24,079 bases of DNA. It comes from a virus. Its lineage: Duplodnaviria; Caudoviricetes. A program made the position numbers and the translations under genes. Below are positions 91 to 24,079 of the stretch, in pieces. The notes under the pieces are model-generated. The model saw only the letters and a list, made by a program, of their open reading frames with translations. It did not search any database and was not told the DNA's origin. The stretch lies in IMG/VR virus record IMGVR_UViG_3300048606_000012, positions 1 to 24,079 of that record. The stretch is one strand, 5' to 3'. The stretch's first letter is position 1, and each line of letters opens with the position of its first letter.

Positions 91-561
91 ATGAGTAGAC
101 CTCCAAAATTACCTGAAATGCTTGAGGGCAACAGTAATTCGAAAGAGGATTTAATCGTCCGTAATAAAGTTAAAGCCATGTTCGGTGCAGAAGTCATAAA
201 AGACCTGAAACCTAGTAACAGGCTTAATAAAAATCAAAAAGATATTTTCAATTTTATCAAAGCGCATATCGAGAATGTGGGTATACATGGCGACATTGAC
301 GCTCACATGCTTGAAACGGCTTCTATCGCAATAGACCGCCTGCAGAACATTGAAAAGCTTATCAACGAAGATTTTGACATGATTCGTGATAGGGAGTTAA
401 TGCAGGCCAAAAGCAAATATACAGTTGATTTCATGAAAGCTGTTGAGTTCTTCGGAATGGCTCCGACAGCTCGGGCGAAGTTCGGTTCACTGGTGGCTAA
501 CAATAAGGCCAAAGAGCAGGACCCGTTATTGAAAGTATTAAAGAAAAATAAAAGTGGTTGA
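91..561 (+). CDS. terS: Phage terminase small subunit (P27-like)
   Basis: 156 aa, directly upstream of TerL. MSRPPK N-terminus, 'FGMAPTARAK' and 'DPLLKVL' C-terminal motifs typical of P27-family TerS. SD aaggggtg upstream. Confidence 0.85.
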   Translation: MSRPPKLPEMLEGNSNSKEDLIVRNKVKAMFGAEVIKDLKPSNRLNKNQKDIFNFIKAHIENVGIHGDIDAHMLETASIAIDRLQNIEKLINEDFDMIRDRELMQAKSKYTVDFMKAVEFFGMAPTARAKFGSLVANNKAKEQDPLLKVLKKNKSG

Positions 562-2246
562 TAATCATGTTGTTTGAAATGGCCTGCCAGTATGCGAATG
601 ATGTATTGGACGGAAAAGAAGTAGCAAACAAGTATGTGAAAAAACAATGCCAGATATTCTTAGATGACCTTGAGCGTCAACATGACGATAATTTCGCCTA
701 TTACATGGACTTGGATCAAATCGAAGTAGTAGAAGGTATCTTAGGCCTGCTTAACTTTGCTACAGGAATAGGTGTGACGAATAAGACTGTACTAGAGGGC
801 TTGGTAGGATTCCAAGCCTTCTTTTTTGTGAATGTTTTCGGGTTCCGTTTTAAATCCAATCCAGAGAAATTCAAGAATCGTGACATAACGCTTTTTATCT
901 GCAGGAAAAACGGTAAGACATGGCTTGTCGCTATCCTGTTTATTATCTTGTTACTAACTGAGGACGATTTCAGCGAGTTTTATTCTATCTGTAAAGACCG
1001 TGAACTAGCAGGCCTAGTCAAAACAATGATTGCTCAAGTTCTGAGCGCTAGTCCTGCCATCAATAGTTATTTCGTAGTACCAAAAACATTATCGGGCAAA
1101 GTGGTATGTAAGCTCACAAATTCTTTTTATCAGCCACGGACAGCAGACCCGAGCGCTAACAACGGCCTGCGCCCTAGTGCTTTCATAGCAGATGAAATTG
1201 GAGCTTTTAAAGAGTACGACAATATTAATGCGATGCAGTCAGGCCAGTTAAGTGTTAAGAATCCTCTGAGATTCAAAATCACTACGGCCTATCCTGAGGA
1301 CCAGAGCATCATGCTCGAAGAATTAGCCTATATTAAAAAAGTATTTGACGGGTCAATCGAGGACAACCGTATGTTCGCTTTGCTGTATTATGCCGAAGAT
1401 AATTATTTATGGGACGAAATCGGACTTTTACAGGCTAATCCCCTCAGAATAGAGGAAAACTATCAGGAGATTCGTGATAACCGTAAAGAGGCAATCGAAA
1501 AACCCAAAGTACGGGCTGAATACCTTTGTAAGCACATGAACCACTTTATGCCTAGCAACGCAGGCGAAGAGTATGTCAATGTCGAGGATTTACGACAATG
1601 TAAGATACCTGAGTTTGATTGGACAGGCCGACAGGTGTGGATTGGTGTCGATTTGGCTCTTACAGTAGATAACTGCGCTATTGCGATGGTCACAGAAGAG
1701 GATTTGAAAATTTATGCTGATGTATTCGCTTTTGTTCCAACTGAGAGAATTGAGGAAAAGAACCGTGTCGAGAAAATCAATTATTACGATTTTATCAAAG
1801 CAGGCAATTGTTTTGCTTGTGGTGACATGGTAATGGATTACGGCTTTATGGAAGAGTTTGTTTTAGCAATCGAAGAAAAGTACAAGGTTACCGTTATGGG
1901 CGTGGGCTATGACCGTTACAATGCGTTAAGTTCAGCGCAACGATGGGAACGGGCCAACCTCAAGACCGTGGAAGTTAAACAACATTCTTCGGTGCTTCAT
2001 CCTGCTACTAAGTTGCTACGCGAAAAAATCTTGAATAAAGAGTTTTTCTACACGCCAAATGACTTACTGGAAATCAATTTTCAAAATGCAAAAGTTATCG
2101 AAAATAATAATAAAGACACTTACATTAACAAAAAGAAAAGTACAGGCAAAGTAGATATGTTAGCGAGCCTTATCAATGGAGTGTACCTGCTTCAAATGGA
2201 CGTTATCTTTAATCCTGACAGCGATTGGGCTATCCAAATCATTTAA
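558..2246 (+). CDS. terL: Phage terminase large subunit
   Basis: Walker A RKNGKT, Walker B FIADE, coupling motif ITTA, nuclease motifs GVDLA and KVD. Start is either TTG 558 (overlapping the TerS stop) or ATG 567. Confidence 0.95.
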   Translation: MIIMLFEMACQYANDVLDGKEVANKYVKKQCQIFLDDLERQHDDNFAYYMDLDQIEVVEGILGLLNFATGIGVTNKTVLEGLVGFQAFFFVNVFGFRFKSNPEKFKNRDITLFICRKNGKTWLVAILFIILLLTEDDFSEFYSICKDRELAGLVKTMIAQVLSASPAINSYFVVPKTLSGKVVCKLTNSFYQPRTADPSANNGLRPSAFIADEIGAFKEYDNINAMQSGQLSVKNPLRFKITTAYPEDQSIMLEELAYIKKVFDGSIEDNRMFALLYYAEDNYLWDEIGLLQANPLRIEENYQEIRDNRKEAIEKPKVRAEYLCKHMNHFMPSNAGEEYVNVEDLRQCKIPEFDWTGRQVWIGVDLALTVDNCAIAMVTEEDLKIYADVFAFVPTERIEEKNRVEKINYYDFIKAGNCFACGDMVMDYGFMEEFVLAIEEKYKVTVMGVGYDRYNALSSAQRWERANLKTVEVKQHSSVLHPATKLLREKILNKEFFYTPNDLLEINFQNAKVIENNNKDTYINKKKSTGKVDMLASLINGVYLLQMDVIFNPDSDWAIQII

Positions 2247-2261
2247 AAAGGAGGTTTGCCC

Positions 2262-3539
2262 GTGTGGCCTTTTAGAAAGAAAGAAGAACGAGCAACCTTA
2301 GAAGAAATCTTAATTCAAAGTGGCGCTTTAACGACCACTCTTTCGAAAGACCAAGCTTTAAACATTCCTGCTTTCACAGCTTGCGTAGAATTAATCTCAA
2401 TGACAGTCGCAAGTTTGCCCGTGAAGCTTTATACAGCGACAGGCGAAACTACAGAAACAAAAGAGGATCAACGTGTTGACTTATTAAATGATGATACGGG
2501 TGATACCTTAGACGGATTCCAATTGAAGAAAGCGCTTGTCGAAGATTACTTGATACACGGTGGAGGCTATGCCTTTATCAATCGCAGGCTAAACAATGCT
2601 CAAAGTGTGCATTATGTGGACTTTCCTTACATTGCGATTAACAAGAATGTGGACCCAATCTATAAAAAAGCTGACTTTATGGTAAATGGCGAATCTTTTG
2701 CTGAATACCAATTCATTAAGTTGCTTCGAAAGACCAAAGACGGGGTTACAGGCAAAGGAATTTTAAAAGAAAACAATAAAATGCTGTCTGTCGCCTATAA
2801 TCAAATGGCCTATGAAGAGGTTCTGGTTAAAACTGGTGGAAATAAGAAGGGATTTTTAAAATCGCAAGGTCGTTTAAGCTCTGAGGCTATGGCTGAGTTA
2901 AAAGCAGGATGGAAAGACCTTTATGCCAACTCAGAAGAGAACGTTTTAGTCCTTAATAATGGGCTTGAGTTCCAAGAGGCCTCTCAGACCTCCGTAGAGC
3001 TTCAATTGAATGAACACAAGCAAAGTAACTCAGACGAGATTTGCAAGGTGTTCCTGGTCACGCCACGCATTTTAACAGGCGAAGCAGACGAAGAAGAATA
3101 TAATAATTGGATTAAAATTTGTATTTTGCCTATTTTGGTATCATTTGAAACGGCTTTAAACAAAGATTTCCTCTTACCGAGCGAAAAAGAAAACCATTAT
3201 TTCGCCTTTGACACCACAGATTTAACAAAAGCCTCAATCGAAGAACGTTTTTCTGCCTATGACATAGCCATTAAAGGCGGTTTTATGCAAATTGACGAGG
3301 TTCGATACAAAGAGAATTTAGCCCCATTAAAGCTGAATTGGATTAAAATGGGCTTGCAAGATGTACTTTATTTCCCTAAATCTGAGGAAATTTACACGCC
3401 AAACACCAATAAACTCGCTAAAATGGGCGAAAATCCAACAGTAGAATCGACAGGAGGGGCAAATAATGAAGGAATTTCAAATCAATCTGGACTTAATCAA
3501 GAAAACGGAAATACCGCCAATACAGGTCAAGCGAACTGA
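2262..3539 (+). CDS. HK97-family portal protein
   Basis: [30 protein letters not shown] and [10 protein letters not shown] motifs, and position after TerL. SD AAGGAGGT at 2248-2255 abuts the TTG at 2256, so GTG 2262 is the preferred start. Confidence 0.93.
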
Positions 3540-5628
3540 TTTAAACAACATTCTTTTTCAATTTGTCCTTACAGATAACGGGCTAATTGTTGATTTAACC
3601 GACTCTATTGTGCGTCTGAGTGTTTTAAAACCGTCTGGACTAACTGTTTTCCAAGATTGCGTCATTACAGACGCTTTGGATGGCTCTTGCGAGGCACTTT
3701 TAAACAATCAAGCCTATTTAGAGACAGGGATGCACTCAGGGGAACTAGTGATAACCAAAGGGGAAACCCAATCGACCACCAGGCAATTCGAATATTTTTC
3801 TTTAAATACAATCATGAACGATAATACACTAGAAAGCTCGAATGATTGGGAAACTCTACATACTATTTTGCTTAATAGTGGGTTAAAGCCCCTTTTAGGC
3901 GAAAATACGCCTAATGGAATCGTGGAGCCTGATTACAAAGGCCAAATCTACTTAGATACCTTAAATAACCTCATGTTTTACGCTTTTGACTTAACTGTAA
4001 ACAGTTGGTCTCCTTTCGGCACAGGCTCAGGTGGTGAAGGTGGCGGTGGTCCTGTTTATTGGGCTGATATTCTCTCGAAACCTCTCACTTTCGTACCGAG
4101 CAATCACGACCACGGAATGCTCGAAATTACAGGCTTAACCGAAGCACTTGATACGATTGAAAAAATGGAAGGACCACAAGGACCTGCAGGACCGCAAGGA
4201 TTACAGGGTTTGCAAGGTTTACAAGGGATTCCAGGCCCAAAAGGTGATAAAGGCGATAAAGGGGATCAAGGCTTGCAAGGAATTGCAGGACCGAAAGGAA
4301 ATACAGGCGATATTGGTCCTGCAGGCGAGCAAGGTCCCATTGGATTAACAGGTCCAGAAGGTCCCATCGGTCCAAAAGGTGATGATGGCGCTGACGGTAC
4401 AGGCGTGACGATTTTAGGGAGCTATCCCACAGCAGGCGACTTAAATACAGCTCACCCGACAGGAAATACCATTGGTGACGCTTACATTGTGGCAGGTGAT
4501 TTATATGTATGGAATGGCTCTATTTTTGAGAATGTTGGACGAATTCAAGGACCCGAAGGAGCGCAGGGTCCCATCGGACCAACTGGACCAAAAGGAGATG
4601 CAGGCGAAACTGGAATTCAAGGAATTCAAGGACCTGCAGGACCAGAAGGAGCGCAGGGACTAAAAGGAGATACAGGTCTGCAGGGACCTATCGGACCTGA
4701 TGGACCGCAAGGGATTCAGGGAATTCCAGGCGAAACAGGCCCACAAGGAATTGCAGGACCCGAGGGACCCCAGGGGTTAAAGGGAGATACGGGTTTACAA
4801 GGGATTCAAGGGATTCAAGGACCGATTGGACCTGATGGACCCACTGGTTTACAAGGTCCTCAAGGATTAAAAGGAGATACGGGATTACAAGGACCCATCG
4901 GACCAGAGGGACCACAGGGACCTGCAGGAGCAAAAGGGGATACAGGCGAAATTGGGCCAACTGGACCACAAGGAATCCAGGGACCCATCGGACCCGAAGG
5001 ATTACAGGGACCACAAGGATTAAAGGGAGATACAGGAGATATTGGACCACAAGGGCCACAGGGGGTGCAGGCGAGTGTTGAAGATAATCTTATTAGCACT
5101 AGTATTGATACTGCTCTTTCAGCTAATCAAGGGCGTATTTTAAACGAAACAAAAGCTAATATTGACCATGTTCATGACTATGCGCCCGATACCCATTCGC
5201 ATATAGTTGCTGAAATCGAAGGACTTCAAACTGAATTAGATGGCAAATTATCTAAAACAGGTGGAGAGCTTACAGGCCCTTTGACGATAACGAATAAAGG
5301 CGATTTAAAAGAACAACTCAAAATTAATATTGATAGAGCATGGACTTTTAAACAAACAGGCGTAGACGCAAGCTCGCAATTAACTCTTTCGCCTGACACA
5401 AATAATAAAACATTTAACATCATGTCACCTTTAGGTGTAAAAACACTTGAAGTTAGAGTTAGTGATATACCCGAAGATGGCTATATCAATGCGCCTGTCA
5501 TTCAAGAAAACGGAACGAATTTAAGCGATAAGTATTTATTAAATACAAGAATCTGGACAGGTACACAGGCCGAATATGATGCAGTTGCCACGAAAGACGC
5601 AACGACTTTATATTTTATAACGGGGTGA
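3466..5628 (+). CDS. Collagen-like fibre protein with BppU-like N-terminal domain
   Basis: N-terminus resembles the BppU/DUF2479 Ig domain ([14 protein letters not shown]...VRL...KPSG). Two Gly-X-Y blocks, H-x-H knots (HDH, HVH, HSH), the fibre repeat DNLISTS..ALSANQG, and C-terminal TQAEYDA..KD.TTLYFI. SD aggagggg upstream. Confidence 0.85.
4171..5070 (+). repeat. Collagen Gly-X-Y repeats: about 26 triplets (4171-4404) and 58 triplets (4549-5070) separated by a ~48 aa globular spacer
   Basis: Read directly from the translation, with recurring [12 protein letters not shown] units. Confidence 0.95.
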
Positions 5629-5632
5629 CAGA

Positions 5633-8449
5633 ATGGCTAATTTGGCAAATGTGCCTATTAAATATATAAAAGTAAATGAAGACCGTTCAAGGGTTAGTAG
5701 TAATTTAAAACCAATAGAAATAAATGTGACGGCTCTTGGAAAAGACCAATGCCAAATAGGCGGAACAATTGAAAGTGATATATCGCCTATTACTGGAACA
5801 ATAACAACCTTAATTGATGGGGATATTGTAAATTCTATTACGTTTGATAACGATGTAAAGCCTAGTATTATTGTAACTTTACCAGAAGCACGAACAGATA
5901 TAACTCAAATAATGGTACGTCATGCAGACCCTACCGATAAACCTATTGTTTATGTATCTGAAAATAAAGTTGATTGGTTTGAAATCACTTTTGAAGGTGA
6001 AGAAGACGATTGGAGACGTTTGAAATATTCAATTCCCGTTAACAGTTCAATAGAATTTACAACTTCTATACCAACATGGATTGAAATAAACGATAATGTT
6101 GAAATGGATATTTCTGACGGACAGTTTGGAACAGTCGAGTTTTTCATAAAATTTAAACCAGATTTACCAAATGAAATTCAAGCAATAACAGATAAAGGTG
6201 ATTTAGGCACTCAGCAATATTACATGTTAATGGATGCTCGAAGTGGAACACCTCAGATTAAATTTAAACTAGGGAATAGTCATGAAATAACGGTGGATAG
6301 AACTAAGGACATAATAGGCCGATGGGTTCATATGGCATTTGTTATGGACGGTTCAAAAATTATTTATTACGAAGATGGAGAACTCATTCATCAAGAGGAA
6401 GGATTAAATTATTTTTTTAGTCGAACTAGTATAAGGTTAACATTCGGTAGAACCTCAGATAGACAAATGTATTATGGAAATTTTCTTTACAATTACCATA
6501 GAGTTTGGAATGTCGCACGAAGTCAAACAGAAATAAAAGATAACGCCTATTATGATGTTGACCCTACAAATCCTGATTTAAGAGGATATTGGGTTTTTAA
6601 TAATAGAAAACCAAAAGAGTTAACAGGAGGACTACACGAAGGATATTTAAAAAATAATGTGACTTTCCCTCTTGATGTTCCAGTCGAGACACTGGTAAAT
6701 AATTCTTTAGAATTTATAAGAGACCAACAAAGCTATGTTTCTATTTCACATCATGATTCATTGACGATTAACGGACCAATGACTCTCGAATTTTGGGTTA
6801 AAATGAAAAGCCCTTTACCTAATGATTTTCAAGTATTAGTGGATAAAGGAAATATCGGAACGACTCAATTTTATGTGCTTCATGAAGGCCGTAACGGCAA
6901 TAATCAAATTAAATATCGATTCGGAACAGGCCCCGAAAGAACTTTCAACCGTCCTGTTGATATTATAGGCAATTGGACACATATGGCTTTTGTCTGGGAC
7001 GGAACCAACATGTTTTATTATGAAAATGGCCTGCAAGTCGCACAAGAAAGTTTTCCTGTTTCTTTTTCGCCTAATACTATGCCTTTAACATTCGGGAGAA
7101 TGTCAGCAGGTGGAGCTTATTTAAATGCTTATCTGGATAATGTCAGACTTTGGAATGTTAGTAGAAGTGCAGAAGAGATAAATAATAACAAAGATATTCC
7201 AATCGATGGAAATACACAAGGTTTAATAGGGTTGTGGGAGTTTGACGAAGGAGCAGGAATAGTTGTAAATGACCTTAGTGTAAATAATAACGATGGGATC
7301 ATAACAAATGCGGTTTTTTCAACAGACGCCTCTCCTACAATATTACCTACAATAACAGGACCTATTATATTAGGCGAAACAAAGATTGATAATATTTTTT
7401 TAGGCGAACAACAAATTTTAAATGTGTATTTAGGGGATAAAATTTTAACGAAAAATCCAACAAAGCCTCTTGTACAAGTAACGAGTTTAACAAATTCAGT
7501 TCGTTTGGATTGGCCTGTAACAGAAAATACAACTTCATGGAATATTTATCGTTCAGAAGTTAAAGGGACTTTAGGCGAAAAAATGTCCGATGGAAGTTTT
7601 ATAAAAGTAAATACGTATACAGATACAACCGCAATAGGTGGAACCACTTACTATTATACAGTTGAATCAAAAAACGCTGATAATAACAAAGCCACAAAAG
7701 CAGAGCAAGTAACGGGATTCCCTTATTCAGAACTTGTTTATGAAAATAAATTGGTAGATTTTATAGGCTATACAGGTTGGACGGTGTACGGTACACCAGA
7801 AGTTACAAGTGATTTTGGAAACGTTGCCACTTTACAAGGGGGCGACCGATTAAAAATTGATACAGCCGAAAGATTACGATTTTATCTGCCTGTAGGAGTG
7901 GTTGGTAGTGCGAACGCAGGCGGTATCATCAAAGCAAATATAGCAGGCAAAAACGAATACACGATGGAATATGAAATACGCTTTGATACAGGCTTTCCGT
8001 GGAGTAAAGGCGGTAAAGTCCCAGGTTTGTCAGGTGGTGTTGGTTATACAGGCGGTGAACCTGCCACGGCAGGCGATGGTTTTAGCGTCCGAATGATGTG
8101 GCGAGAAGATGGGCGCATTATTCCATATGTCTATCATTACAAGCAAACAGACCAATTCGGAGACACCTTCGGATTGACTCTCGGATATTTCACTAATACA
8201 AAAGCACATAAAGTCAAATACTATGTAAAGCTTAATACACCAGGTGGTATGCCTGAGGGCATCGCAGATGGGATATTAAGGATTTGGATAGACGATATTT
8301 TAGTTTTGGACAAGACCGACATGTGCTACAGGACAGACCAAAGCCAAATTGATACAGCTCATATTTCCATTTTCCCAGGTGGTTCTACTGCTGATTGGAA
8401 TATGACAGCCGATGGATATATTCGTTTGTCATATGTTCAATGGCAATAA
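5633..8449 (+). CDS. Modular carbohydrate-binding/depolymerase protein: 2x LamG-like, FN3, polysaccharide lyase family 14-like domain
   Basis: Two repeats of W.HMAFV.DG....YYE.G ... R.WNV.RS..EI (LamG-like jellyroll). FN3 motif VRLDW...WNIYRS...YTD....GTTYYYTV. PL14-like motifs GGKVPGLSGG, GFSVRMMWR, LNTPG..DG.LRIW and FPGG. Confidence 0.8.
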   Translation: MANLANVPIKYIKVNEDRSRVSSNLKPIEINVTALGKDQCQIGGTIESDISPITGTITTLIDGDIVNSITFDNDVKPSIIVTLPEARTDITQIMVRHADPTDKPIVYVSENKVDWFEITFEGEEDDWRRLKYSIPVNSSIEFTTSIPTWIEINDNVEMDISDGQFGTVEFFIKFKPDLPNEIQAITDKGDLGTQQYYMLMDARSGTPQIKFKLGNSHEITVDRTKDIIGRWVHMAFVMDGSKIIYYEDGELIHQEEGLNYFFSRTSIRLTFGRTSDRQMYYGNFLYNYHRVWNVARSQTEIKDNAYYDVDPTNPDLRGYWVFNNRKPKELTGGLHEGYLKNNVTFPLDVPVETLVNNSLEFIRDQQSYVSISHHDSLTINGPMTLEFWVKMKSPLPNDFQVLVDKGNIGTTQFYVLHEGRNGNNQIKYRFGTGPERTFNRPVDIIGNWTHMAFVWDGTNMFYYENGLQVAQESFPVSFSPNTMPLTFGRMSAGGAYLNAYLDNVRLWNVSRSAEEINNNKDIPIDGNTQGLIGLWEFDEGAGIVVNDLSVNNNDGIITNAVFSTDASPTILPTITGPIILGETKIDNIFLGEQQILNVYLGDKILTKNPTKPLVQVTSLTNSVRLDWPVTENTTSWNIYRSEVKGTLGEKMSDGSFIKVNTYTDTTAIGGTTYYYTVESKNADNNKATKAEQVTGFPYSELVYENKLVDFIGYTGWTVYGTPEVTSDFGNVATLQGGDRLKIDTAERLRFYLPVGVVGSANAGGIIKANIAGKNEYTMEYEIRFDTGFPWSKGGKVPGLSGGVGYTGGEPATAGDGFSVRMMWREDGRIIPYVYHYKQTDQFGDTFGLTLGYFTNTKAHKVKYYVKLNTPGGMPEGIADGILRIWIDDILVLDKTDMCYRTDQSQIDTAHISIFPGGSTADWNMTADGYIRLSYVQWQ

Positions 8450-8471
8450 TACAGGGTAGAGGTGTTCGAAT

Positions 8472-9407
8472 ATGCAACAAATGAAGCTCATTCCTTTTAC
8501 GGTCAAATCAGTTCAAAAAACGACAGACGAACGCCCGTATGGCATTGACCAAATCAAAGCGCCTGAAATGTGGGATCAAGCCGAAAGAGGCAAAGGAGTC
8601 GTTATTGCCATTCTTGATACAGGCATAGATGTAACTCACCCTGATTTGAAAGACCGTATCATTGACGGGCGAAACTTTACTTTAGAGGGCCGTGTGAATG
8701 ATATTACCGACCGAAATGGTCACGGTACTCATGTAGCAGGCACAATCGCAGGCTCAGAAGATGGTGAGGGCGTCATAGGTGTAGCACCAGAGGCCGACTT
8801 ATTAATTTGTAAAGTGTTAGATAAAGATGGTTCAGGAGATTATAGAGGTATTACACAGGCCATAAGATGGGCTACTAGATGGCGTGGTCCAAATGGCGAA
8901 AAAGTTAGAATCATAAATATGAGTTTAGGGGGGCCAGTTCCAAATGAGAGACAATATAATGCGATTTTACAGGCTTGCGGAGAGGGGATACTTGTCGTTG
9001 TCGCAAGTGGGAACGAAGGAGACCAGGACGAGAGTAGTATGGAGCTTGGTTGGCCTGCTGGGTACAATGAGTGTATTACTGTCTCAGCGTGCGATGAGAC
9101 AAAGAAGCTTGCGCCGTTTTCAAGTAACTCGAAAGAGGTAGATGTAATGGCCCCAGGGGTTGATGTGCTATCTACTTATCCAGTAGGCAAGTATGCTGTT
9201 TTATCAGGTACTTCAATGGCAACCCCTCATGTGACAGGCGCATTGGCTTTAATTATTAATATAGGCGAAAAGTATTTCGATAGAACATTAACGGAATCCG
9301 AGGTATATGCCCTTTTGGTCGAGAGCTGTTGTTCTTTGGGCTATAAGCCATCAAGTGAAGGACACGGCATAATTGATTTAACGAACTTGAATAAAAGATG
9401 CAAATAA
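8472..9407 (+). CDS. isp: Intracellular subtilisin (S8), Isp/IspA-like
   Basis: Catalytic triad motifs ILDTG, HGTHVAG, GTSMATPHV. N-terminal LIPF motif characteristic of Bacillus intracellular serine proteases. No signal peptide or large prodomain. Confidence 0.92.
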   Translation: MQQMKLIPFTVKSVQKTTDERPYGIDQIKAPEMWDQAERGKGVVIAILDTGIDVTHPDLKDRIIDGRNFTLEGRVNDITDRNGHGTHVAGTIAGSEDGEGVIGVAPEADLLICKVLDKDGSGDYRGITQAIRWATRWRGPNGEKVRIINMSLGGPVPNERQYNAILQACGEGILVVVASGNEGDQDESSMELGWPAGYNECITVSACDETKKLAPFSSNSKEVDVMAPGVDVLSTYPVGKYAVLSGTSMATPHVTGALALIINIGEKYFDRTLTESEVYALLVESCCSLGYKPSSEGHGIIDLTNLNKRCK

Positions 9408-9473
9408 GAGGCAAAATACTACTAAACCTTTGGTCAATTTCAATATCCAACGTATATCCTTTCATACATGCAG

Positions 9474-9598: not shown

Positions 9599-9623
9599 AT
9601 GCATGAAAGGGGGTGACACCTAA

Positions 9624-16868: not shown

Positions 16869-16881
16869 AGGAGTGGTGTAA

Positions 16882-17232
16882 ATGGCTCTAATAACAGTCG
16901 CAGGGGTAGCATTACCCACTCCTGCAGAATTTCAAATAGGCTATATGGATATAAGTAAAGCCGAAAGAAACGCAAACGGAAACATGATAATCGAAAGAAT
17001 TGCGACAAAAAGAAAGCTATTTTTAACTTATGCCTTTTTAACGACTAGTGAATTGTCGCTAATCCTGCAGAAAATTGCGCCTGCTTATTATGATGTGACT
17101 TATTTAGACGCACATAGCAACACCTTTAAAACAGGCTCTTTTTACTGTGGTGACCGTACTATGGGAATGGTTGATTATGTTGACGGGATAGCCCGTTATA
17201 AAGAGTTTACTTTTAATTTAATTGAGAGGTAG
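16882..17232 (+). CDS. Distal tail protein-like (small Dit)
   Basis: Position after TMP, LPTP...DI...RNANG.M....IATKRKL...F.LIER pattern. Confidence 0.65.
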   Translation: MALITVAGVALPTPAEFQIGYMDISKAERNANGNMIIERIATKRKLFLTYAFLTTSELSLILQKIAPAYYDVTYLDAHSNTFKTGSFYCGDRTMGMVDYVDGIARYKEFTFNLIER

Positions 17233-17240
17233 GGCGAATC

Positions 17241-18905
17241 GTGGTTAATGTTTCAAGTGCTTTCAAAGAAAAAGTTTTTACTACTTCCAGAAAAACCAAT
17301 GCCAGAGTCACATTTGAAATTATTGACTCGACAGCCTATGACAATGTGATTACCGTAAGCGACCGAAGCCTTTTTAGTCGTGAGGACCAAGTGAGCAACC
17401 GAGAAAGAACGATGAGCTATAAATATGGAACGATGGAGCGTAATCACTGGCTTATGGACGGTTCTTTTGTGATTGCCCCTAAACCTCAAGACGAGGCCGA
17501 AGATAAGGCCGAAGTAGGTTGGTGGAGCTTTTGGGTAAGTGATGCAGAAGGGAATTTTTCAACCAAGCCTGTAGTGACCGTCACTTTTCCAGAGGTTCAT
17601 AGTTCCCTGGGTATCACCGTCACTTTCGATACTCTTACAGGCGAAACAGCAAAAGATTTCGATGTAAAAATTTATGATGATGCAGGCGCTATGATTCATC
17701 AATGGTTTTTTGCTAACAATTCAAAACCTGTCGTGGTACTGGATCAAATCTATGACAACTATAAAAAAGTTGAAATTACAATCAGCAAATGGAGCAAAGG
17801 AAATCACAGCGCCAGGATTTCAGAAATTGATTTCGGAATTACACAAGAATATTCAGGCGAAAAATTAATTGATATGAAAGTCATTGAGGAAATGGATTTA
17901 TTAGGGAGTACCATGCCCTCGAATGAACTGCAGTTTAAAATTGATAACTTTGACCGTGCTTTTAACATTATTAATCCTGAGGGTTTCTATCGCTTCATCC
18001 AAACAGGCCAAGAGGTTAAAGCTTATATAGGCGTTAAGATAAATGAAGAAGAAGAGGAAACGGATATTTTCGAAGAGATTTTAATGGGTACTTTCTACAT
18101 GACAGAATGGAAAAGTGATTTAGGCGCATTGACAACCACTTTCACAGCCAGAGACCTTATCACTTCACTAGAAACGAAACCCGATTATGTGAGCGCTATA
18201 GTAAAACCGAATCTTTACGATTTAGCTATAGACCTCTTTACTCATACAGGCGTGACCAAATACCAACTCGATTCCAGATTAAAAGACTTTGCGAGTTATG
18301 GCTTTTTGGAACCTATTAACCCACGGGTAGCCTTACAACATATAGCTATCGCAAGTCAAAGCACAGCTTACCAAGACCGAAACGGTGTCATGATTATCAA
18401 ACAATTTGAGCCGATTCAAACCAGTACAGGCTATATGATTTTTGCAGGCCCAGATGAATATGCAGGCGTGACCACACCAGAGGTGTTAGTCGATTATGGT
18501 TATCAAGCTATTGACTTTGACAATCTTTTTGCAGAACCCGAAATAGTACTAGAGTCTGCAGTTAAAGCTTTAATTTTTGATGTTCACCATACCGAAGAAT
18601 ATGCAACACAAGTGACAATCGAAAACCCTGATTTGAGCGCAAATAAAGGAGTTACTTATCAATATCAAAATCCTCTTATTGTAACACCTGTACAGGCCCA
18701 ACAAGTCGCAAACTGGATGTTTTTAGAATATGACTTTGACGCAAAATATACAGCTGTATGGCGTCAGAATCCTGCTTTTGAAGTAGGCGAGGCCGTTGCG
18801 ATAGAGGATATTTACGGAGGAATGAAAAAAGTAAGAATCACAAAACAAGAGTTTAACTTCGCAGGCTATTTGGAGGGCGTGACCGAAGGGAAAGGAGGCG
18901 TTTAA
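17241..18905 (+). CDS. Baseplate hub / Tal-like tail protein
   Basis: Position after Dit, internal galactose-binding-like segment (SLGITVTFD...RISEIDFG), C-terminal WRQNPAFEVGE. Confidence 0.65.
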   Translation: MVNVSSAFKEKVFTTSRKTNARVTFEIIDSTAYDNVITVSDRSLFSREDQVSNRERTMSYKYGTMERNHWLMDGSFVIAPKPQDEAEDKAEVGWWSFWVSDAEGNFSTKPVVTVTFPEVHSSLGITVTFDTLTGETAKDFDVKIYDDAGAMIHQWFFANNSKPVVVLDQIYDNYKKVEITISKWSKGNHSARISEIDFGITQEYSGEKLIDMKVIEEMDLLGSTMPSNELQFKIDNFDRAFNIINPEGFYRFIQTGQEVKAYIGVKINEEEEETDIFEEILMGTFYMTEWKSDLGALTTTFTARDLITSLETKPDYVSAIVKPNLYDLAIDLFTHTGVTKYQLDSRLKDFASYGFLEPINPRVALQHIAIASQSTAYQDRNGVMIIKQFEPIQTSTGYMIFAGPDEYAGVTTPEVLVDYGYQAIDFDNLFAEPEIVLESAVKALIFDVHHTEEYATQVTIENPDLSANKGVTYQYQNPLIVTPVQAQQVANWMFLEYDFDAKYTAVWRQNPAFEVGEAVAIEDIYGGMKKVRITKQEFNFAGYLEGVTEGKGGV

Positions 18906-18906
18906 T

Positions 18907-21465
18907 ATCTCTTTAGATAGATGGTATACATGTCAAAGAAATGATACTTTCGCTATTATAGCAAGTAAATTATACATAACTGTAGCTCAAATAGAGAGTA
19001 GAAATCCAACTGTAAATGTCAATAATGTTTATGAGGGCTTAAAATTAGTTGTTCCTTTGCCTCAAATGGATTACACCGTCATACAAGGGGAAACCTTTGC
19101 CACAATCGGCACTAAATTTAATACGACAAGCGCTACCATTCAAGAATTAAATCCTGACAAAAGCCCGAATAATGTTTATGGTGGTTTGGTCTTAAAGGTC
19201 CCACGGCCTGTAGGTGACTTCCAAGTTTTGACCAAAGAGCAGTTTGAATGGCAAGCGCTTTTATGTACATCGCAATATGAAACTTCCAGGCCATATCCAG
19301 AAAACTTTGGTGTAAGCGCTTCAAATTTTGATGGCGCAGGCCTAAGTTGGGGCGCAATCCAGTTTAACGCTAAGACAGGCCCATTAATTTCGATGTGGCA
19401 AACTATGATAAATAATTACCCAGAAGTAAGCTTGAAAGCTTTTACAGACAATGCAAGCAGAACGCTCGAATCGAATACAGCAAATTATAATTCATGGAAA
19501 ACATTATTTCTCGCAGGCGTTTTCGCTGATATTCTTGCATGGTCTGATGCTAGAGCTGACCTCGCTAAAAATAAACACGGTTTTATCGAGCCGTGGAATA
19601 CTTATTTTATGAATTTGGGTATTACTGCAGAGGCTCAAGAACTGCAGAAAACTAATGCGAGTTGGTATCACCAGATAGCCTTGCAATGGTTTAATGATTA
19701 TGGCCTGTGGTCTAGACAAGGATATGCCCTCATGTTTGATATTGCTGTACAATCTGGAAGTATGAATCCTAAAGTAAGTGGAGCCACTTATGATTTAATA
19801 GGCGAAATTAATACTTGGTATGCAGGGATCAGCAAGACAGGCAAAACAGCCACGCAATTAGAAGTAGAAAAGCTAGTGAAAATCGCAAATAGACGAGCTG
19901 ATTATATTGATAGTTCATGGCAGGCAGGGTACAGGGACCGAAAAGTAACACTTGCTGAAGGTTTTGGCGAAGTAAATGGCATGGCGATGAACACGGACTC
20001 TATGTATAACATGGGTTTAGAGCCTATGTATGTTACAAATGTTCCAGGCGAACTATGGTATCCTCTTGCAGAAATCCAAGCAAACACCACCCCGAGTGCT
20101 GTTGGCGATAATTATGTAACGGATGAAGATGTAACGTTAACAGTCGAGGCTGTAAATGGCCTGCTAAAGAATGATACGGACCCAGAGGGAAATAATTTAA
20201 CAGCTATTTTAGTTTCCTCGACTACATACGGGACGCTTGATTTAAGGCCTGATGGTGGCTTTACTTACATTCCAAATAAGAACTATAACGGTAATGACTT
20301 TTTCACCTATAAGGCTACTGATGGATTACTAGACTCGCCTAATGCAAGTGTGCAAATTACTGTTAACGCTGTAAAGGACCCACAGCCCTCAAATACGGAC
20401 GTTTACATTGTCCAGAGTGGAGAATACTTTTCTGTCATTGCAAGCCGTTACGGGCTAACTACAGCCGAATTAAGCGCATTGAATCCTGATGTGAACCCAG
20501 ATTTAATTTATGTGGGACAAGAGCTTTATGTGCCTAGACCAGATTATGACCCACCAGAAATGCCGACATTTATTAGAACCGTAGGCGATAGCTTAGAAGT
20601 TTCAGCAATCGTAACCGATAATAACGGGCTAACCGTTAAATTGATTGTGGACGCTAGTTTAAAATCTGATTTCACTTCCTTTATCGAGACAAAAGAAAGC
20701 GCTTTTGTTTCAAGTGGCTCTAGGGTTTATGTGTGGTTAAACTCCCTTGATTTTAATACGATTTCAACGACTATTTATTTAAGAGTCCGAGCAAACAATG
20801 GGAGTCATGATTCGCCTGAGAGACAAGTCGAATATGTTTATACAGTTCCACAGCCAGCTAACACACAAATTTATACAGTACTTGCAGGCGAAACACTTTC
20901 AAGTATAAGCGTAAAATTCAATACCACGATAAACAAATTATTAGAGCTAAACCCATTCGTGGAGGCTGTAAACGTTTATCAAGGGCAACAAATGTATGTT
21001 CCGACTTATGTAGAGCCAGAACCACCGCCTGTTATTGGTCCATTACCAATAGGCTATTATCCCTTAGAAGGTAGCAAGACCGATTGGAAACCAACTGATT
21101 ACTTAGACTTTGAGCAAATGAATCGAATGGAAAGCACTATACAACTTCTGAAAGATGTAGCTAAAGATTACGGAAGTGTTTCATTTTCTTTCGAAGTTTC
21201 GACAGACCGAACCGAAAGACATACCGAATGGGCCGATAGTTTCAATCGAATCGAAGAGGGCATTTTAACAATAGCAGAGTTTTTTAACTTAGAAAATTCA
21301 ATCGAAGTGCCTAAAACAAACTGGAAAGCACTTGATCCTGTATCTTACGTTGATATGAACCGAATTGAAAAGAACATTTTAGATTTATATAAATTCGTAC
21401 ATGGAAATTTAGGTCTTATAAAATATTGTGGTCAAACTACAGTAGGTGACGAAGGAGTGGCGTAA
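18907..21465 (+). CDS. Baseplate/tail protein with 4 LysM domains, lysozyme-like domain and cadherin-like Ig domain (ORF track start 19057; likely true start ATC 18907)
   Basis: LysM repeats at ~18922, 19069, 20401 and 20869. Lysozyme-like motifs YETS...NFDGAGLSWGAIQFN...FDIAVQSG. Cadherin-like NDTDPEG...DGGFTY.P...G.D.FTY..TDG. C-terminal KT.W....D.NRIE repeats of tail-fibre adaptors. Confidence 0.8.
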   Translation: MSLDRWYTCQRNDTFAIIASKLYITVAQIESRNPTVNVNNVYEGLKLVVPLPQMDYTVIQGETFATIGTKFNTTSATIQELNPDKSPNNVYGGLVLKVPRPVGDFQVLTKEQFEWQALLCTSQYETSRPYPENFGVSASNFDGAGLSWGAIQFNAKTGPLISMWQTMINNYPEVSLKAFTDNASRTLESNTANYNSWKTLFLAGVFADILAWSDARADLAKNKHGFIEPWNTYFMNLGITAEAQELQKTNASWYHQIALQWFNDYGLWSRQGYALMFDIAVQSGSMNPKVSGATYDLIGEINTWYAGISKTGKTATQLEVEKLVKIANRRADYIDSSWQAGYRDRKVTLAEGFGEVNGMAMNTDSMYNMGLEPMYVTNVPGELWYPLAEIQANTTPSAVGDNYVTDEDVTLTVEAVNGLLKNDTDPEGNNLTAILVSSTTYGTLDLRPDGGFTYIPNKNYNGNDFFTYKATDGLLDSPNASVQITVNAVKDPQPSNTDVYIVQSGEYFSVIASRYGLTTAELSALNPDVNPDLIYVGQELYVPRPDYDPPEMPTFIRTVGDSLEVSAIVTDNNGLTVKLIVDASLKSDFTSFIETKESAFVSSGSRVYVWLNSLDFNTISTTIYLRVRANNGSHDSPERQVEYVYTVPQPANTQIYTVLAGETLSSISVKFNTTINKLLELNPFVEAVNVYQGQQMYVPTYVEPEPPPVIGPLPIGYYPLEGSKTDWKPTDYLDFEQMNRMESTIQLLKDVAKDYGSVSFSFEVSTDRTERHTEWADSFNRIEEGILTIAEFFNLENSIEVPKTNWKALDPVSYVDMNRIEKNILDLYKFVHGNLGLIKYCGQTTVGDEGVA

Positions 21466-21996
21466 ATGGCAGTAGATTATAATAAAACCAGGTGGGAAAA
21501 CCGAGAAGTTGAAAGGCCCAGGACTTATCAACTTGTAGACAATGGTGACGGTACAACTACCCTTATTCCTGCAGAGGGAAATGTTTTAAGTGAAGGAACT
21601 CCGATTGTAGCGACTACCATGCAACAAATTGAGGACGCTATCGAAATGTTATCCATCACAAGTCAAATTTCCGAAAAAGGCCAAACCTCAAATGGTCATT
21701 ATCTTAAATTTTCAAATGGCAATCTATTATGTTGGGGCCTCATGTCTTTTAGTGCTACCACAGGCGCAAATGGAGCTTTACACTCTGTAACACTACCGAC
21801 AAAGGGCCTGCCTGCCTCATTTAGTCATACGACTTATTTCTGTGGGGTAACTCCTTATTTCACCGAATGTGTGGGGGTTGATATACGTTCACGGGCAGTA
21901 GATTTTTTTGAGCCTAGAATTTTTACGATTTCGCCTATGACAGATAAGTATATTGAAATGGGTTATTTCTGTTTCGGAAGGTGGTATGAGAGTTGA
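21466..21996 (+). CDS. Short tail fibre / receptor-binding protein with gp53-like C-terminal domain
   Basis: N-terminal Y.KT.W.N..VE.P..Y...EGTP..A..M..IE anchor and NGHYLKFSNGNLLCWG motif. Confidence 0.7.
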   Translation: MAVDYNKTRWENREVERPRTYQLVDNGDGTTTLIPAEGNVLSEGTPIVATTMQQIEDAIEMLSITSQISEKGQTSNGHYLKFSNGNLLCWGLMSFSATTGANGALHSVTLPTKGLPASFSHTTYFCGVTPYFTECVGVDIRSRAVDFFEPRIFTISPMTDKYIEMGYFCFGRWYES

Positions 21997-22265
21997 GAAT
22001 TTTATATTCACCAGTTCGTAGTGATAAATTTATTGGTTATTCTTTCGCAGGCGAAATTATTACATGCGACATGGAAGAAGGTCGGGATACATTCGACTTT
22101 TCTACTATGCCTAATGGAATAGCTGAAAATATTACAACCATTTTGCCTACAAACCCGATTTTACGGGCCGAACGAAAAGATGGTATTTTAAGTGTCGAAC
22201 TTGTCAAATACATCAAGGAAGATGCAACAGAAGCAGAACGTTTCCCTGAATGGATGGAGGTTTAA
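21993..22265 (+). CDS. Small tail-associated hypothetical protein
   Basis: 90 aa, overlaps the upstream stop (TTGA). DTFDFS.MPNG...RFPEW pattern. Confidence 0.7.
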   Translation: MRILYSPVRSDKFIGYSFAGEIITCDMEEGRDTFDFSTMPNGIAENITTILPTNPILRAERKDGILSVELVKYIKEDATEAERFPEWMEV

Positions 22266-22266
22266 C

Positions 22267-22401
22267 ATGGGAGAAATTATTTGGAAAACTCAAGAAGAAA
22301 TCGACCTAGAGCTACAGAATCCTAAATTAAGTGATATTGAAGAGTTAGCCAAACAGCAAACCGATTTAGTATTCACATTAATGACTAATGGGGTGATTTG
22401 A
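22267..22401 (+). CDS. Small tail-associated protein (XkdW-position), 44 aa
   Basis: SD ggagg at 22256-22260 and ATG 22267 (rather than 22192). Stop overlaps the next ATG. Confidence 0.7.
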   Translation: MGEIIWKTQEEIDLELQNPKLSDIEELAKQQTDLVFTLMTNGVI

Positions 22402-22535
22402 TGGATTGGTACACATTTGCACTCATAGACTTTAGGATTTACAAAGAGCCTGAAAGAATTAAGCAGTATGTCATTAAAGAAAAAATCACAGCTGAACATT
22501 ATCAGCAGATTACAGGCGAGACTTATCAGGTATGA
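22401..22535 (+). CDS. xkdX: XkdX-family protein (44 aa, not in ORF track)
   Basis: MDWYTFALIDFRIYKEPERIKQYVIKEKITAEHYQQITGETYQV, with the XkdX signature IT.E.Y..ITGE.Y. TGATG coupling at the start and ATGA coupling at the end. Confidence 0.85.
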   Translation: MDWYTFALIDFRIYKEPERIKQYVIKEKITAEHYQQITGETYQV

Positions 22536-22780
22536 ATAACGACATCGTTTTAACAATCATCCAAATTGTATTTAGCCTGATATTTGAAGGGATCATCCTT
22601 TCAATGGTGTTTGCTTTTATCGCCAATCAAACAAGCGAAAAGCAAAATAATGCCCTAAAAACTGAAATGTCTAACATAGAAGTGCAAAACAAATTTATTT
22701 ATGAACAATTACTAAAATCAATCGAAAACTCAAAAACTGAGGTTATAAGCCAAATCAAAGAAAGCGAGGCCAACAAATGA
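22532..22780 (+). CDS. Membrane protein, holin-like / lysis accessory
   Basis: One N-terminal hydrophobic helix plus a coiled-coil tail, located before the holin. Confidence 0.55.
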   Translation: MNNDIVLTIIQIVFSLIFEGIILSMVFAFIANQTSEKQNNALKTEMSNIEVQNKFIYEQLLKSIENSKTEVISQIKESEANK

Positions 22781-23100
22781 ACTTTGATTTAGATTTTATC
22801 ATGTCTAACGCTTTAGTAATTGTTCCTATCGTTATTGCGATTACACAGGCCATCAAGCTTACAGGATTCGTCAAAGACCACTTTTCGCCTTTGGTTTCTA
22901 TCGTAGTCGGGATTTTAGTCGGTTGGATGGGTCATCATGAAAACCCTGAATTATCTACGATTCTTTTAGGTGGAACTATTTATGGCTTAATTGCTTCTGG
23001 CCTGTATTCTGGTGTTAAAACGACTATGCAGGCTAGAAACCAACAAATAGCAGAAGAAGCACGAAAAAAACAAGCACAAAGGGGTAAACAAAATGATTAA
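22777..23100 (+). CDS. Holin
   Basis: 2-3 hydrophobic segments, GLIASGLYS motif, basic C-terminus, upstream of the endolysin. Confidence 0.8.
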   Translation: MNFDLDFIMSNALVIVPIVIAITQAIKLTGFVKDHFSPLVSIVVGILVGWMGHHENPELSTILLGGTIYGLIASGLYSGVKTTMQARNQQIAEEARKKQAQRGKQND

Positions 23101-23719
23101 AAAGCTCACAGCACTAATCTTAGTATCACTTTGCTTTATGGCTGTTTACAATCCACCACGGACAGACGCCCAAAGCTTTAAGACTCATGTAGTCCAAACG
23201 GGAGACAGCATGTGGAAAATCAGCGTGAAGTATCAAATAGGCCTAAGTGAAATTGTACAGGCTAATCCAAGTGTAAAAAATCCTGCTATGATTTACCCAG
23301 GACAAAAATTAAATGTGCCGAATATCGACAATGTAAAAAATGTCGAAACTGAGGTTTTAACTCTTGTGAATCAAGAACGTCAGAAAGCAGGCCTAAAGCC
23401 TTTGGAAATGGATTGGGAACTACAACGTGTAGCTCGCATGAAATCAGAAGATATGGCGAAAAAGAATTACTTTAGCCACACAAGCCCGACATATGGCTCA
23501 CCTTTTGACATGATGAAACAGTTTGGTATATCTTTCCGTACTGCAGGCGAAAACATTGCTACTGGTCAAAGGACAGCCCAGGAAGTAATGGATTCATGGA
23601 TGAAGTCACAAGGTCACCGAGAAAATATTCTTAAATCTGATTTCACTCATATTGGTGTCGGTTACTACCGTGGAGGCAGTTACGGCACAATGTGGACGCA
23701 AATGTTTATCGCTAAATAA
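23093..23719 (+). CDS. Secreted SafA-type LysM + CAP/SCP (YkwD-like) protein
   Basis: Signal peptide MIKKLTALILVSLCFM...DA. LysM HVVQTGDSMWKIS...NP.VKNP.MIYPGQKL. CAP motifs LVNQER, FSHTSPTYGSPF, GENIA, WMKSQGHRENIL and WTQMF. Confidence 0.9.
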   Translation: MIKKLTALILVSLCFMAVYNPPRTDAQSFKTHVVQTGDSMWKISVKYQIGLSEIVQANPSVKNPAMIYPGQKLNVPNIDNVKNVETEVLTLVNQERQKAGLKPLEMDWELQRVARMKSEDMAKKNYFSHTSPTYGSPFDMMKQFGISFRTAGENIATGQRTAQEVMDSWMKSQGHRENILKSDFTHIGVGYYRGGSYGTMWTQMFIAK

Positions 23720-23767
23720 AACCTTGCTCATAGGATAAAATAATTTTACTTTGAGAGGGGGCAAAAC

Positions 23768-24079
23768 ATGGTTAAAATATTTTTAGACCCAGGCCACGGT
23801 GGCGCTGATACAGGCGCTATCGGTAATGACCTTCATGAAAAAAATATTGTTTTGGACTTAGCAAAGAGAATCGAGCAAAAATTACAGGCCTTTAAAGATA
23901 TTGAAATAAAATTATCCCGTGTCAGTGATGTTTTCCTGCCACTTACCGAACGAACTGACATAGCTAATTCATGGGGTGCTGATTGCTTTTTGAGCTTACA
24001 TTTGAACTCAGCCACCGATAAAAGCGCTAGAGGCTTCGAGTCTTTTATATATTCTGGCACGACCAATAAATCGACAATT
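23768..24079 (+). CDS. N-acetylmuramoyl-L-alanine amidase (Amidase_3, CwlC-like) endolysin, truncated at window end (not in ORF track)
   Basis: MVKIFLDPGHGGADTGAIGNDLHEK...ERTDIANSWGADCFLSLHLNS...GFESFIY, with Zn ligands H, E, H. SD gagagggg upstream. Confidence 0.92.
   Translation, partial: MVKIFLDPGHGGADTGAIGNDLHEKNIVLDLAKRIEQKLQAFKDIEIKLSRVSDVFLPLTERTDIANSWGADCFLSLHLNSATDKSARGFESFIYSGTTNKSTI

What the first reader, a model, noticed from the sequence alone, without database searches (positions are those of the whole stretch)
219..23890. Window-wide over-represented asymmetric motif CAGGC / AGGCGAAA embedded in coding sequence
Seen (hand count): AGGCGAA occurs 24 times on + (1562, 2441, 3077, 3897, 4602, 4728, 4944, 7372, 7402, 7573, 9263, 9830, 10123, 10383, 12232, 13599, 14798, 17639, 17855, 19800, 20046, 20886, 22049, 23545) and 8 times on - (TTCGCCT at 693, 3201, 5388, 7066, 10669, 20811, 21930, 22884). 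25 of these 32 extend to AGGCGAAA. A rough base-composition estimate, assuming ~37% GC, gives only about 2 expected 7-mers. CAGGC occurs roughly 100 times on + and about 40 times on -, against roughly 10 each expected. It is not just a peptide motif: it is read as x-Gly-Glu, Gln/Lys-Ala-Lys/Asn (10123, 10383, 12232), Phe-Ala (693, 3201) and Ser-Pro using TCG (six sites), which favours GC-rich codons in an AT-rich genome. Inference: DNA-level selection or a biased repair process. Candidates are dispersed binding sites for a phage protein (compare mycobacteriophage stoperators), a genome-marking, modification or packaging signal, a Chi-like recombination signal (it is not B. subtilis Chi AGCGG), or Vsr-type repair tied to a C5-methyltransferase. 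I do not recognise it as a described motif.
Basis: partly seen in the sequence, partly recalled or inferred. Interest (0 to 1): 0.85.

Follow-up and report, generated by a model that had tools for sequence, protein, structure and literature searches.

The report
Evenly spaced phage DNA signature site
One lineage of uncultured soil phages, likely infecting Bacillus-like bacteria, carries a loose 10-12-letter DNA word about every 100-150 bases on both strands, spaced more evenly than chance and not enriched in the bacterial genomes sampled; it is likely a landing site kept by selection for a DNA-binding protein that has not been identified.

Summary
AGGCGAA occurs 24+8 times and CAGGC 107+40 times. 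Both survive codon shuffles and a model of 30 avoided words. They are pieces of one graded site, roughly WTWC-RGGC-GAWW (best form TACAGGCGAA).

The site marks one terminase clade (8 of 8 tree rows, 0 of 38 others). It lies on both strands, in coding and non-coding DNA, at 6.5-9.8 per kb. A matrix trained on two relatives predicts the window's synonymous codons. None of 502 Bacillales-type genomes searched comes within tenfold of the window's density; the true host is unknown. Sites turn over between relatives but are spaced more evenly than an independent-site null, which favours selection for coverage.

Vsr repair and Chi fail their tests. The one complete relative has no methyltransferase, Vsr or tyrosine integrase. 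The best guess is binding sites for a phage-encoded protein; a ParB-like protein is the leading, unproven candidate. In relatives the site has dyad symmetry, but only weakly in this window. The window also purges GCNGC so hard that Ala-Ala occurs once against 32 expected. Earlier scan notes report similar phage 'signature words' on other DNA, with other words.

The parts
153..23895 (.). Array of 160 matrix-defined sites (about WTWC-RGGC-GAWW), 6.6 per kb, on both strands
   Evidence: 160 observed vs 58.7 in codon shuffles; matrix trained on relatives G001 and L024
1562..23551 (+). 24 exact AGGCGAA (21 read x-Gly-Glu, 3 Gln/Lys-Ala)
693..22890 (-). 8 exact AGGCGAA on the antisense strand (2 Phe-Ala, 6 Ser-Pro)
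219..23889 (.). 147 CAGGC cores (107 +, 40 -); 106 of 147 continue with C or G
4941..4950 (+). Full consensus TACAGGCGAA, in the collagen-like gene
17636..17645 (+). Full consensus TACAGGCGAA, in a tail gene
17852..17861 (+). TTCAGGCGAA, highest-scoring site (the same 10-mer at 10120-10129)
18749..18758 (.). Perfectly palindromic form of the site, TACAGCTGTA
91..3539 (+). Context: terminase small and large subunits, portal
   Evidence: PHROGs 83, 9, 12
3466..9407 (+). Context: collagen-like fibre gene, large protein of unknown function, protease
9624..21996 (+). Context: head maturation protease, HK97-type capsid, connectors, tail tube, tape measure and tail genes
22777..24079 (+). Context: holin, SafA/YkwD-like LysM-CAP sporulation protein, amidase (cut by the contig end)

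Best explanation
The word is a graded 10-12 bp site that occurs every 100-150 bp on both strands throughout one phage lineage, and it is likely kept by selection as a binding site for a DNA-binding protein, probably a phage-encoded one. Shown: enrichment, graded consensus, both strands, restriction to one clade, site turnover at constant density, more even spacing than independent sites give, and dyad symmetry in relatives. Inferred: one site serves a neighbourhood of a few hundred bases, so extra nearby sites add little and long gaps cost fitness. A dimeric protein would load at these sites and coat or mark the genome.
For: Gly after nnA and before GAA is GGC at 79% of 141 sites, with A, G and T all lowered; near variants are also raised. 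Sense z 16.3 and antisense z 9.5 after Shine-Dalgarno-like and restriction-like words are fitted. 12 copies vs 0.47 expected in 5,032 non-coding bases of relative G001. Matrix trained on G001+L024 gains 56.6 log-likelihood units with one parameter in the window and 33-66 in five other held-out clade sets, vs 2.8 or less in 5 host stretches and 1.8 or less for the reversed matrix in clade sets. Density 6.5-9.8 per kb in 12 clade loci, 4.2 or less in all other loci scored. Gap CV 0.77-0.78 vs 0.93 (training, z -3.2) and 0.83-0.86 vs 0.94-0.96 (8 held-out loci, z -2.2 and -3.0); the reversed matrix and 10 core-permuted matrices never fell below z -1.4. Four-fold sites inside motif words are kept in 282 of 340 cases vs 235 expected, while the exact 7-mer is shared in only 19 of 56 ortholog comparisons. 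TWCR-N2-YGWA peaks at spacer 2 in all 6 clade sets and in 0 of 4 outside sets. The ParB-like protein has 15 close homologs (57-93%), and equal contig lengths tie two of them to clade genes.
Against: No binding was shown and no reader is known. The window holds only late genes, so gene content rests on one complete relative (capsid 66% identical). Homologs of the ParB-like protein at 31-52% sit on 80 loci, none with the motif. Only its N-terminal ParB domain matches, below the curated cut-offs; no ParB/Noc DNA-binding domain was detected. The window has 0 TWCG-NN-CGWA (4.1 expected) and TCGNNCGA at 6 vs 9, and the symmetric matrix gains only 21 there vs 57. Exact words alone are not evenly spaced (2 of 12 tests p<0.05), and the window alone is not significant (p 0.07-0.85). 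The held-out loci are related and not independent. Weak matrix signal appears in prophage L076 (14) and sister L073 (8.6). Even spacing also follows from fragment-based drive.
Confidence: 0.5

Rival explanations
1. Molecular drive through the phage's own recombination. The YqaJ (lambda-Exo-like) exonuclease would pause at the site, so site-bearing alleles survive resection and win gene conversion, as uptake sequences accumulate by biased uptake.
For: G001 encodes YqaJ and RecT. Lambda exonuclease pauses at GGCGA (PMC7496540, passages), the right half of the site. Drive would give graded matches, both strands, turnover and some evenness (for graded matches: PMC1939737, passages).
Against: 0 of 80 YqaJ-bearing loci outside the clade reach a twofold GGCGA excess (max 1.92, median 1.07). 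Sister L071/L073, with 60% identical YqaJ and 71% identical RecT, has CAGGC 0 vs 14-17 expected. The left half TACAG, strongest in this window, is not part of the lambda pause motif.
Confidence: 0.2
2. The reader is a host protein (nucleoid, repair, sporulation or defence factor) that the phage exploits, and the host does not enrich the word in its own chromosome or was not sampled.
For: The host is unknown. The phages carry a SafA/YkwD-like sporulation gene, and G001 has no tyrosine integrase. parS (PMC7383237, passages) has a 10-bp core that fits TWCR-NN-YGWA.
Against: Matrix weights shift between subclades (left half in the window, right half in G001), as expected of an evolving phage reader. 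The Spo0A box TGNCGAA (recalled) is at or near expectation: 23 vs 16, 27 vs 24, 11 vs 15. The Gram-positive topoisomerase II consensus disfavours +6A (PMC2094056, passages), which this site prefers when its RGGC core is set on the 4-bp stagger.
Confidence: 0.15
3. By-product: extreme restriction-site avoidance, or context-dependent mutation, funnels codon choice into the few permitted GC-rich words.
For: The window purges CCGG (2 vs 89), CGCG (2 vs 74), GCTGG (2 vs 28), GCNGC and CGNCG. This does force Ala-Gly and Thr-Gly towards NCA-GGN and explains part of CAGG (z falls from 11.5 to 5.8). Other soil phages have 'exception' words of this kind.
Against: CAGGA, CAGGT and CAGGG are 56, 37 and 32 against 147 CAGGC; CAGGT is at its shuffle expectation (36 vs 38). 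The matrix still gains 206-317 log-likelihood units after 30 avoided patterns, gapped ones included. Sites occur in AT-rich non-coding DNA. L107 has the motif without purging GCNGC, GCGG or AGCGG. Avoidance does not predict even spacing.
Confidence: 0.1
4. Vsr-type repair tied to a C5 methyltransferase, or a Chi signal for the host AddAB.
For: The word is GC-rich in a 40% GC genome, and Chi-rich phages exist (PMC12315714, abstract and passages).
Against: TAGGC 66 vs 30, CAAGC 58 vs 54, CAGAC 32 vs 28, CAGGT 36 vs 38: no transition variant is depleted. No PF00145, PF01555 or PF03852 in G001. Chi-rich phages have oriented, end-clustered sites and no Rec module; G001 has a Rec module and sites on both strands along its whole length.
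Confidence: 0.04

Closest known systems
DNA uptake sequences (DUS/USS) of Neisseriaceae and Pasteurellaceae
   Same: Short word over-represented genome-wide, with mismatched forms raised in a graded way (PMC1939737, passages; here: 0, 1 and 2 mismatches raised about 10, 7 and 2-fold in the window). Arises by point mutation inside genes.
   Different: Here it is in a phage and not in the sampled bacteria; the exact 10-mer is rare (2 in the window) and near matches dominate; density is several sites per kb; no uptake process is known for a phage genome.
ParB-parS and Noc-NBS
   Same: Palindromic site read by a dimer (parS and NBS sequences from PMC7383237, passages); the parS core fits TWCR-NN-YGWA; NBS sites are scattered over a genome (recalled); a complete relative encodes a protein with a ParB N-terminal-like domain.
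   Different: parS and NBS are 16-bp, sparse, high-information sites; this site is 10-12 bp, degenerate, every 100-150 bp, with a GG/GN centre. The phage protein shows no detectable ParB/Noc DNA-binding domain.
Chi sites and Chi-rich lambdoid phages (LLS, MD8)
   Same: A phage genome enriched for a short word written into genes (PMC12315714).
   Different: Chi there is oriented, end-clustered, shared with the host and tied to the absence of a Rec module; all four are otherwise here.
Mycobacteriophage stoperators (recalled, not read)
   Same: Many dispersed binding sites of one phage protein, lineage-specific.
   Different: Stoperators are about 13 bp, a few dozen per genome, mostly at gene boundaries and oriented with transcription; these sites are hundreds, inside genes, on both strands.
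HIP1 of cyanobacteria (recalled, not read)
   Same: Iterated short word with dyad symmetry inside genes.
   Different: HIP1 is a strict octameric palindrome linked to host methyltransferases; this site is graded, and no methyltransferase was found in G001.

Membership tests
Vsr/C5-methyltransferase bias | C-to-T transition variants of the word are depleted | tested here: not met
   (TAGGC 66/30, CAAGC 58/54, CAGAC 32/28, CAGGT 36/38)
Vsr/C5-methyltransferase bias | C5 methyltransferase and Vsr encoded | tested here: inconclusive
   absent from complete relative G001; host unknown; the window's own early region is missing
Chi | One orientation, clustered towards a genome end | tested here: not met
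   both strands, whole length of G001; strand bias follows gene direction
Chi | Over-represented in the host chromosome | tested here: inconclusive
   not so in 301+201 genomes and 20 stretches searched; true host not identified
Chi | Alters RecBCD/AddAB activity | not testable with these tools
   needs biochemistry
DUS/USS | Graded over-representation by mismatch load | tested here: met
DUS/USS | Present in the chromosome of a competent bacterium and read by its uptake machinery | tested here: not met
   phage-restricted among sequences examined; uptake itself not testable
parS/NBS | Dyad symmetry | tested here: inconclusive
   clear in G001, L024, L019, L107 and the L039 group; weak in the window
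parS/NBS | 16-bp consensus, few copies | tested here: not met
   10-12 bp matrix, 6.5-9.8 sites per kb
parS/NBS | Cognate ParB/Noc with a helix-turn-helix DNA-binding domain | tested here: inconclusive
   only residues 26-81 match ParB/Noc models, below cut-off; no predicted structure was obtained
Stoperators | At gene boundaries and oriented with transcription (recalled) | tested here: not met
   32 of 32 AGGCGAA and 143 of 147 CAGGC lie inside genes; antisense is also enriched
Ltr (RinA/ArpU) binding repeats | A few direct repeats just distal to the ltr gene, upstream of terS (PMC3753634, passages) | tested here: inconclusive
   G001 has four co-oriented copies upstream of terS, but more than 5 kb from its RinA-like gene, and the word is genome-wide

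The most novel reading that the evidence does not exclude
This phage lineage has written about 300 loading sites for its own ParB-like protein into its genome, one every 100-150 bp, so that the protein coats the whole non-integrated genome: a self-marking 'phage nucleoid' that shields it from sequence-specific host nucleases or anchors it into the spore.
Probability: 0.15. Interest if true: 0.9.

Novelty: new variant of a known kind. Interest (0 to 1): 0.66.

Why it matters
Phage sequence bias is mostly known as avoidance of restriction sites. Here the same genomes that purge GC-rich words hard enough to lose Ala-Ala also keep one degenerate site at 6.5-10 per kb, with even spacing, across a lineage whose synonymous sites are close to saturation. 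That implies an unrecognised genome-wide DNA-protein function in small siphophages. It is directly testable, because a complete relative supplies a short list of candidate readers, and motif-free sister phages with a homologous replication module serve as controls. The matrix also assigns soil contigs to this lineage without gene homology.

Tried and rejected
Named relatives: none close. Best terminase 43% and capsid 37% among phage records, no DNA match, best plasmid terminase 49%.
Host: no prophage or spacer match among the listed hits for 251 genomes; the listed hits were mostly the YkwD-like gene and 300 were not shown. The host stays unknown.
Literature: whole-word search for AGGCGAA, CAGGCGAA, TACAGGC and TTCGCCT gave 5 unrelated papers; topic searches showed no description in their listings. 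Supplements were not read, and subscription journals are not covered.
Shine-Dalgarno avoidance: fitted, and both strands stay enriched.
Hairpin or mini-hairpin: arms around AGGC pair no more than chance (46 vs 39.7).
Helical phasing or fixed pair distances: none clear.
HNH nickase site: the sites seen in PMC3592412 (passages) are CG/GT-type and do not match.
Cro-like repressor as reader: 57% identical in the motif-free sister, with a nearly identical helix-turn-helix stretch; no site cluster at the repressor switch.
A parallel 'own word' in the sister: GCAGCCA is enriched in L073 and G816, but all 13 copies in G816 lie on the main coding strand and GCA GCC encodes Ala-Ala, so it may be an exception to avoidance; not used as support.
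L051 passes the 7-mer filter (20 vs 3.2; 1 of 274 non-clade loci, many overlapping) but fails the matrix (gain 3.3) and dyad tests.
A structure prediction for the ParB-like protein gave no result, so its fold beyond the N-terminal domain is open. Solved-structure search gave only weak SbnI and sulfiredoxin matches.
The gene list held one out-of-frame 45-codon entry; later calls used automatically called ORFs and agree.
The tree uses 46 rows chosen from 84 to remove near-duplicates and shorten the run; FastTree local support only.
Population variants from soil runs were too truncated in the output for a substitution analysis. Host maxima were read by eye from the tables.
Full report
1. Observation. 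The window is the late module of a siphophage, terminase to amidase, with all genes on +. The record is a 24-kb virus fragment with no early genes. The excess survives 300 synonymous-codon shuffles on both strands. In a conditional-logit model of synonymous choice CAGGC is the first feature picked (z 16), and it keeps z 10.5 at the last reading of a 30-step fit of avoided words. Against this, the exact 7-mer is not outstanding under a maximal-order Markov model, because its sub-words are already raised. Soil-run contigs confirm the sequence.

2. What the word is. Pooling 14 clade sequences (139 kb of coding DNA), the raised words tile one consensus: TACAGGC z 22, AGGCGAA z 21, and near forms such as AGGCGTA and AGCCGAA. 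Matches to TACAGGCGAA with 0, 1 and 2 mismatches are 2, 27 and 68 in the window against 0.2, 3.7 and 31.5 in shuffles. Fitted matrices give about WTWC-RGGC-GAWW. The window weights the left part and accepts C or G after the core; G001 weights CGAA. A matrix trained on G001 and L024 predicts codon choice in the window (gain 56.6 for one parameter), L039, L040, L015+L016, L019 and L107 (33-66). It does not do so in 5 host stretches (2.8 or less), phage Staley (4.3) or three prophage loci (0.1); weak signal appears in L076 (14) and L073 (8.6). TWCR-N2-YGWA peaks at a 2-base spacer in all six clade sets (window 34 vs 16, G001 138 vs 36; palindromic patterns count twice) and in none of four outside sets. 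TCGNNCGA, which holds no AGGC, is raised in five clade sets but not in the window. So the site is pseudo-palindromic in the lineage and has drifted towards an asymmetric form here.

3. Distribution. In a terminase tree of 46 rows the motif marks one clade of 8 rows (local support 99) and none of the other 38, which include prophages at 70% identity. AGGCGAA runs at 1.2-2.5 per kb in 29 partly overlapping clade loci; 1 of 274 other loci passes the filter and fails the finer tests. Matrix sites are 6.5-9.8 per kb in 12 clade loci and 4.2 or less in the other loci scored. In 301 genomes of the order of Lysinibacillus sphaericus, CAGGCGAAA reaches about 33 per Mb against 498 in the window. In 201 genomes of a second Bacilli order, CAGGCGAA reaches about 74 per Mb against 748. 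Twenty 20-kb host-like stretches show CAGGC at 0.55-1.9 times the shuffle value against 3.5 in the window. The host was not found; a Bacillaceae host is inferred from the SafA/YkwD-like gene and terminase neighbours.

4. Dynamics. Four-fold sites between the window and relatives are 41% identical, and the full 7-mer is shared in 19 of 56 comparisons, yet density is constant. Between closer pairs, four-fold positions in motif words are kept in 282 of 340 cases against 235 expected (9 pairs, not independent). The protein imprint is modest: Gln-Ala 206 vs 109 (controls 232 vs 175) and Gln-Ala-Lys 23 vs 7.8 (controls 12 vs 15.5), while Phe-Ala and Ser-Pro are not raised. G001 has 12 copies in 5,032 non-coding bases against 0.47. 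Exact words are spaced about at random, but matrix sites are under-dispersed: pooled CV 0.80-0.83 vs 0.94-0.95, z -3.2 in training loci and -2.2 to -3.0 in held-out loci, with the reversed and 10 core-permuted control matrices at z -1.4 or above. The window alone does not reach significance. There is no phasing and no end clustering.

5. Candidate readers. The one complete relative, G001 (42.8 kb, capsid 66% identical), encodes YqaJ, RecT, RecU, two replication-initiator-like proteins, XRE and Cro-like regulators, a RinA-like activator, HNH and a ParB-like protein. It has no C5 or N6/N4 methyltransferase, Vsr or tyrosine integrase. A sister phage shares RecT (71%), YqaJ (60%), RecU (53%), Cro (57%), RinA-like (53%) and HNH (51%) but lacks the motif, which weakens these as readers. 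The ParB-like protein was not found in that sister's fragment, in G816, G821 or G809. It has 15 homologs at 57-93%, and contig lengths tie two of them to a clade capsid and to a YkwD-like gene close to the window's (an inference from equal lengths). It keeps an N-x-R motif (GNR in most rows) and DGQHR. Against it, more distant homologs lie on 80 motif-free loci, only its N-terminus matches ParB/Noc models, and no structure was obtained.

6. How it most likely works. Shown: a graded, lineage-specific, two-strand site kept at constant density with even spacing. Inferred: selection for coverage by a protein whose effect reaches a few hundred bases (confidence 0.5). Rivals are recombination drive through exonuclease pausing (0.2), a host reader (0.15), a by-product of avoidance (0.1) and Vsr or Chi (0.04). 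Lambda Exo pauses at GGCGA (PMC7496540, passages), but 0 of 80 other YqaJ loci enrich that word twofold. Avoidance is extreme here, with GCNGC at 1 vs 49 and Ala-Ala at 1 vs 32, and it explains part of CAGG, but not the matrix gain of 206-317.

7. Comparison and novelty. It works like uptake sequences in its graded spectrum, and like parS/NBS in its dyad form. It fails a defining feature of DUS, Chi, parS/NBS, stoperators and Vsr bias. Papers seen: PMC12315714 (abstract, passages); PMC7496540, PMC3592412, PMC3753634, PMC7383237, PMC2094056, PMC8410138, PMC1939737 (passages). Stoperators, HIP1, the Spo0A box and enzyme names are recalled. Searches for the words found no description. Earlier notes of this scan describe other phages with other enriched words (unchecked); none covers this lineage. 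Verdict: real, a new variant of the dispersed-signal kind, reader unknown; interest 0.66.

Noticed in passing
window 91-24079; clade loci: GCNGC is purged (1 vs about 49) and Ala-Ala occurs once against 32 expected in 7,693 residues; clade 20 vs 196, controls 333 vs 327. CGNCG is 2 vs 66-80, Pro-Gly 33 vs 96. Avoidance has reshaped the proteins. The matching restriction specificities (Fnu4HI-type GCNGC, ScrFI-type CCNGG) are recalled names.
   Followed up: partly
This fits the report that phages with their own Rec module mostly lack Chi. L107 does not avoid it.
   Followed up: partly
L030:436-877 (G001): AT-rich repeats between HNH and terS hold four co-oriented AGGCGAAT copies; the motif-free sister has three 90-bp repeats with other words at the same place (L071:11889-12298).
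   Followed up: partly
window 23093-23719: SafA/YkwD-like LysM-CAP gene between holin and amidase; many of its closest homologs lie on 40-45 kb contigs; in G001 it lies beside the RinA-like gene instead.
   Followed up: partly
window 3466-9407: A collagen-like gene, a 938-aa protein and a protease sit between portal and head protease; contigs of other soil runs show joints in the collagen repeats.
   Followed up: no
window 19057-21465: The 802-aa LysM-containing tail protein joins a domain found in a head-region gene of G001 to a C-terminal domain that is a free 138-141 aa gene in four relatives.
   Followed up: no
G001 (L030-L032): Complete 42.6-kb genome with a roughly 250-bp terminal overlap, no tyrosine integrase, two replication-initiator-like genes and an AAA + DUF7192 pair; possibly a non-integrating temperate phage. 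Serine recombinases were not searched by family.
   Followed up: partly
L307, L308 (G819) and L057: These phages enrich words that the clade purges (GCAGC; also CCCAGC and CCCGC in G819, CCAGC in L057).
   Followed up: no
L071, L073, L096, L149: CAGGC is almost wholly absent (0 vs 14, 0 vs 17, 1 vs 15, 0 vs 14); L073 also avoids GAAC/GTTC. L073 and G816 encode DNA methyltransferases.
   Followed up: no
L016:61-789: A zinc-ribbon HNH endonuclease gene abuts a divergent terS (46% identical to the window's, against 85% in L015 beside equally close terL genes).
   Followed up: no
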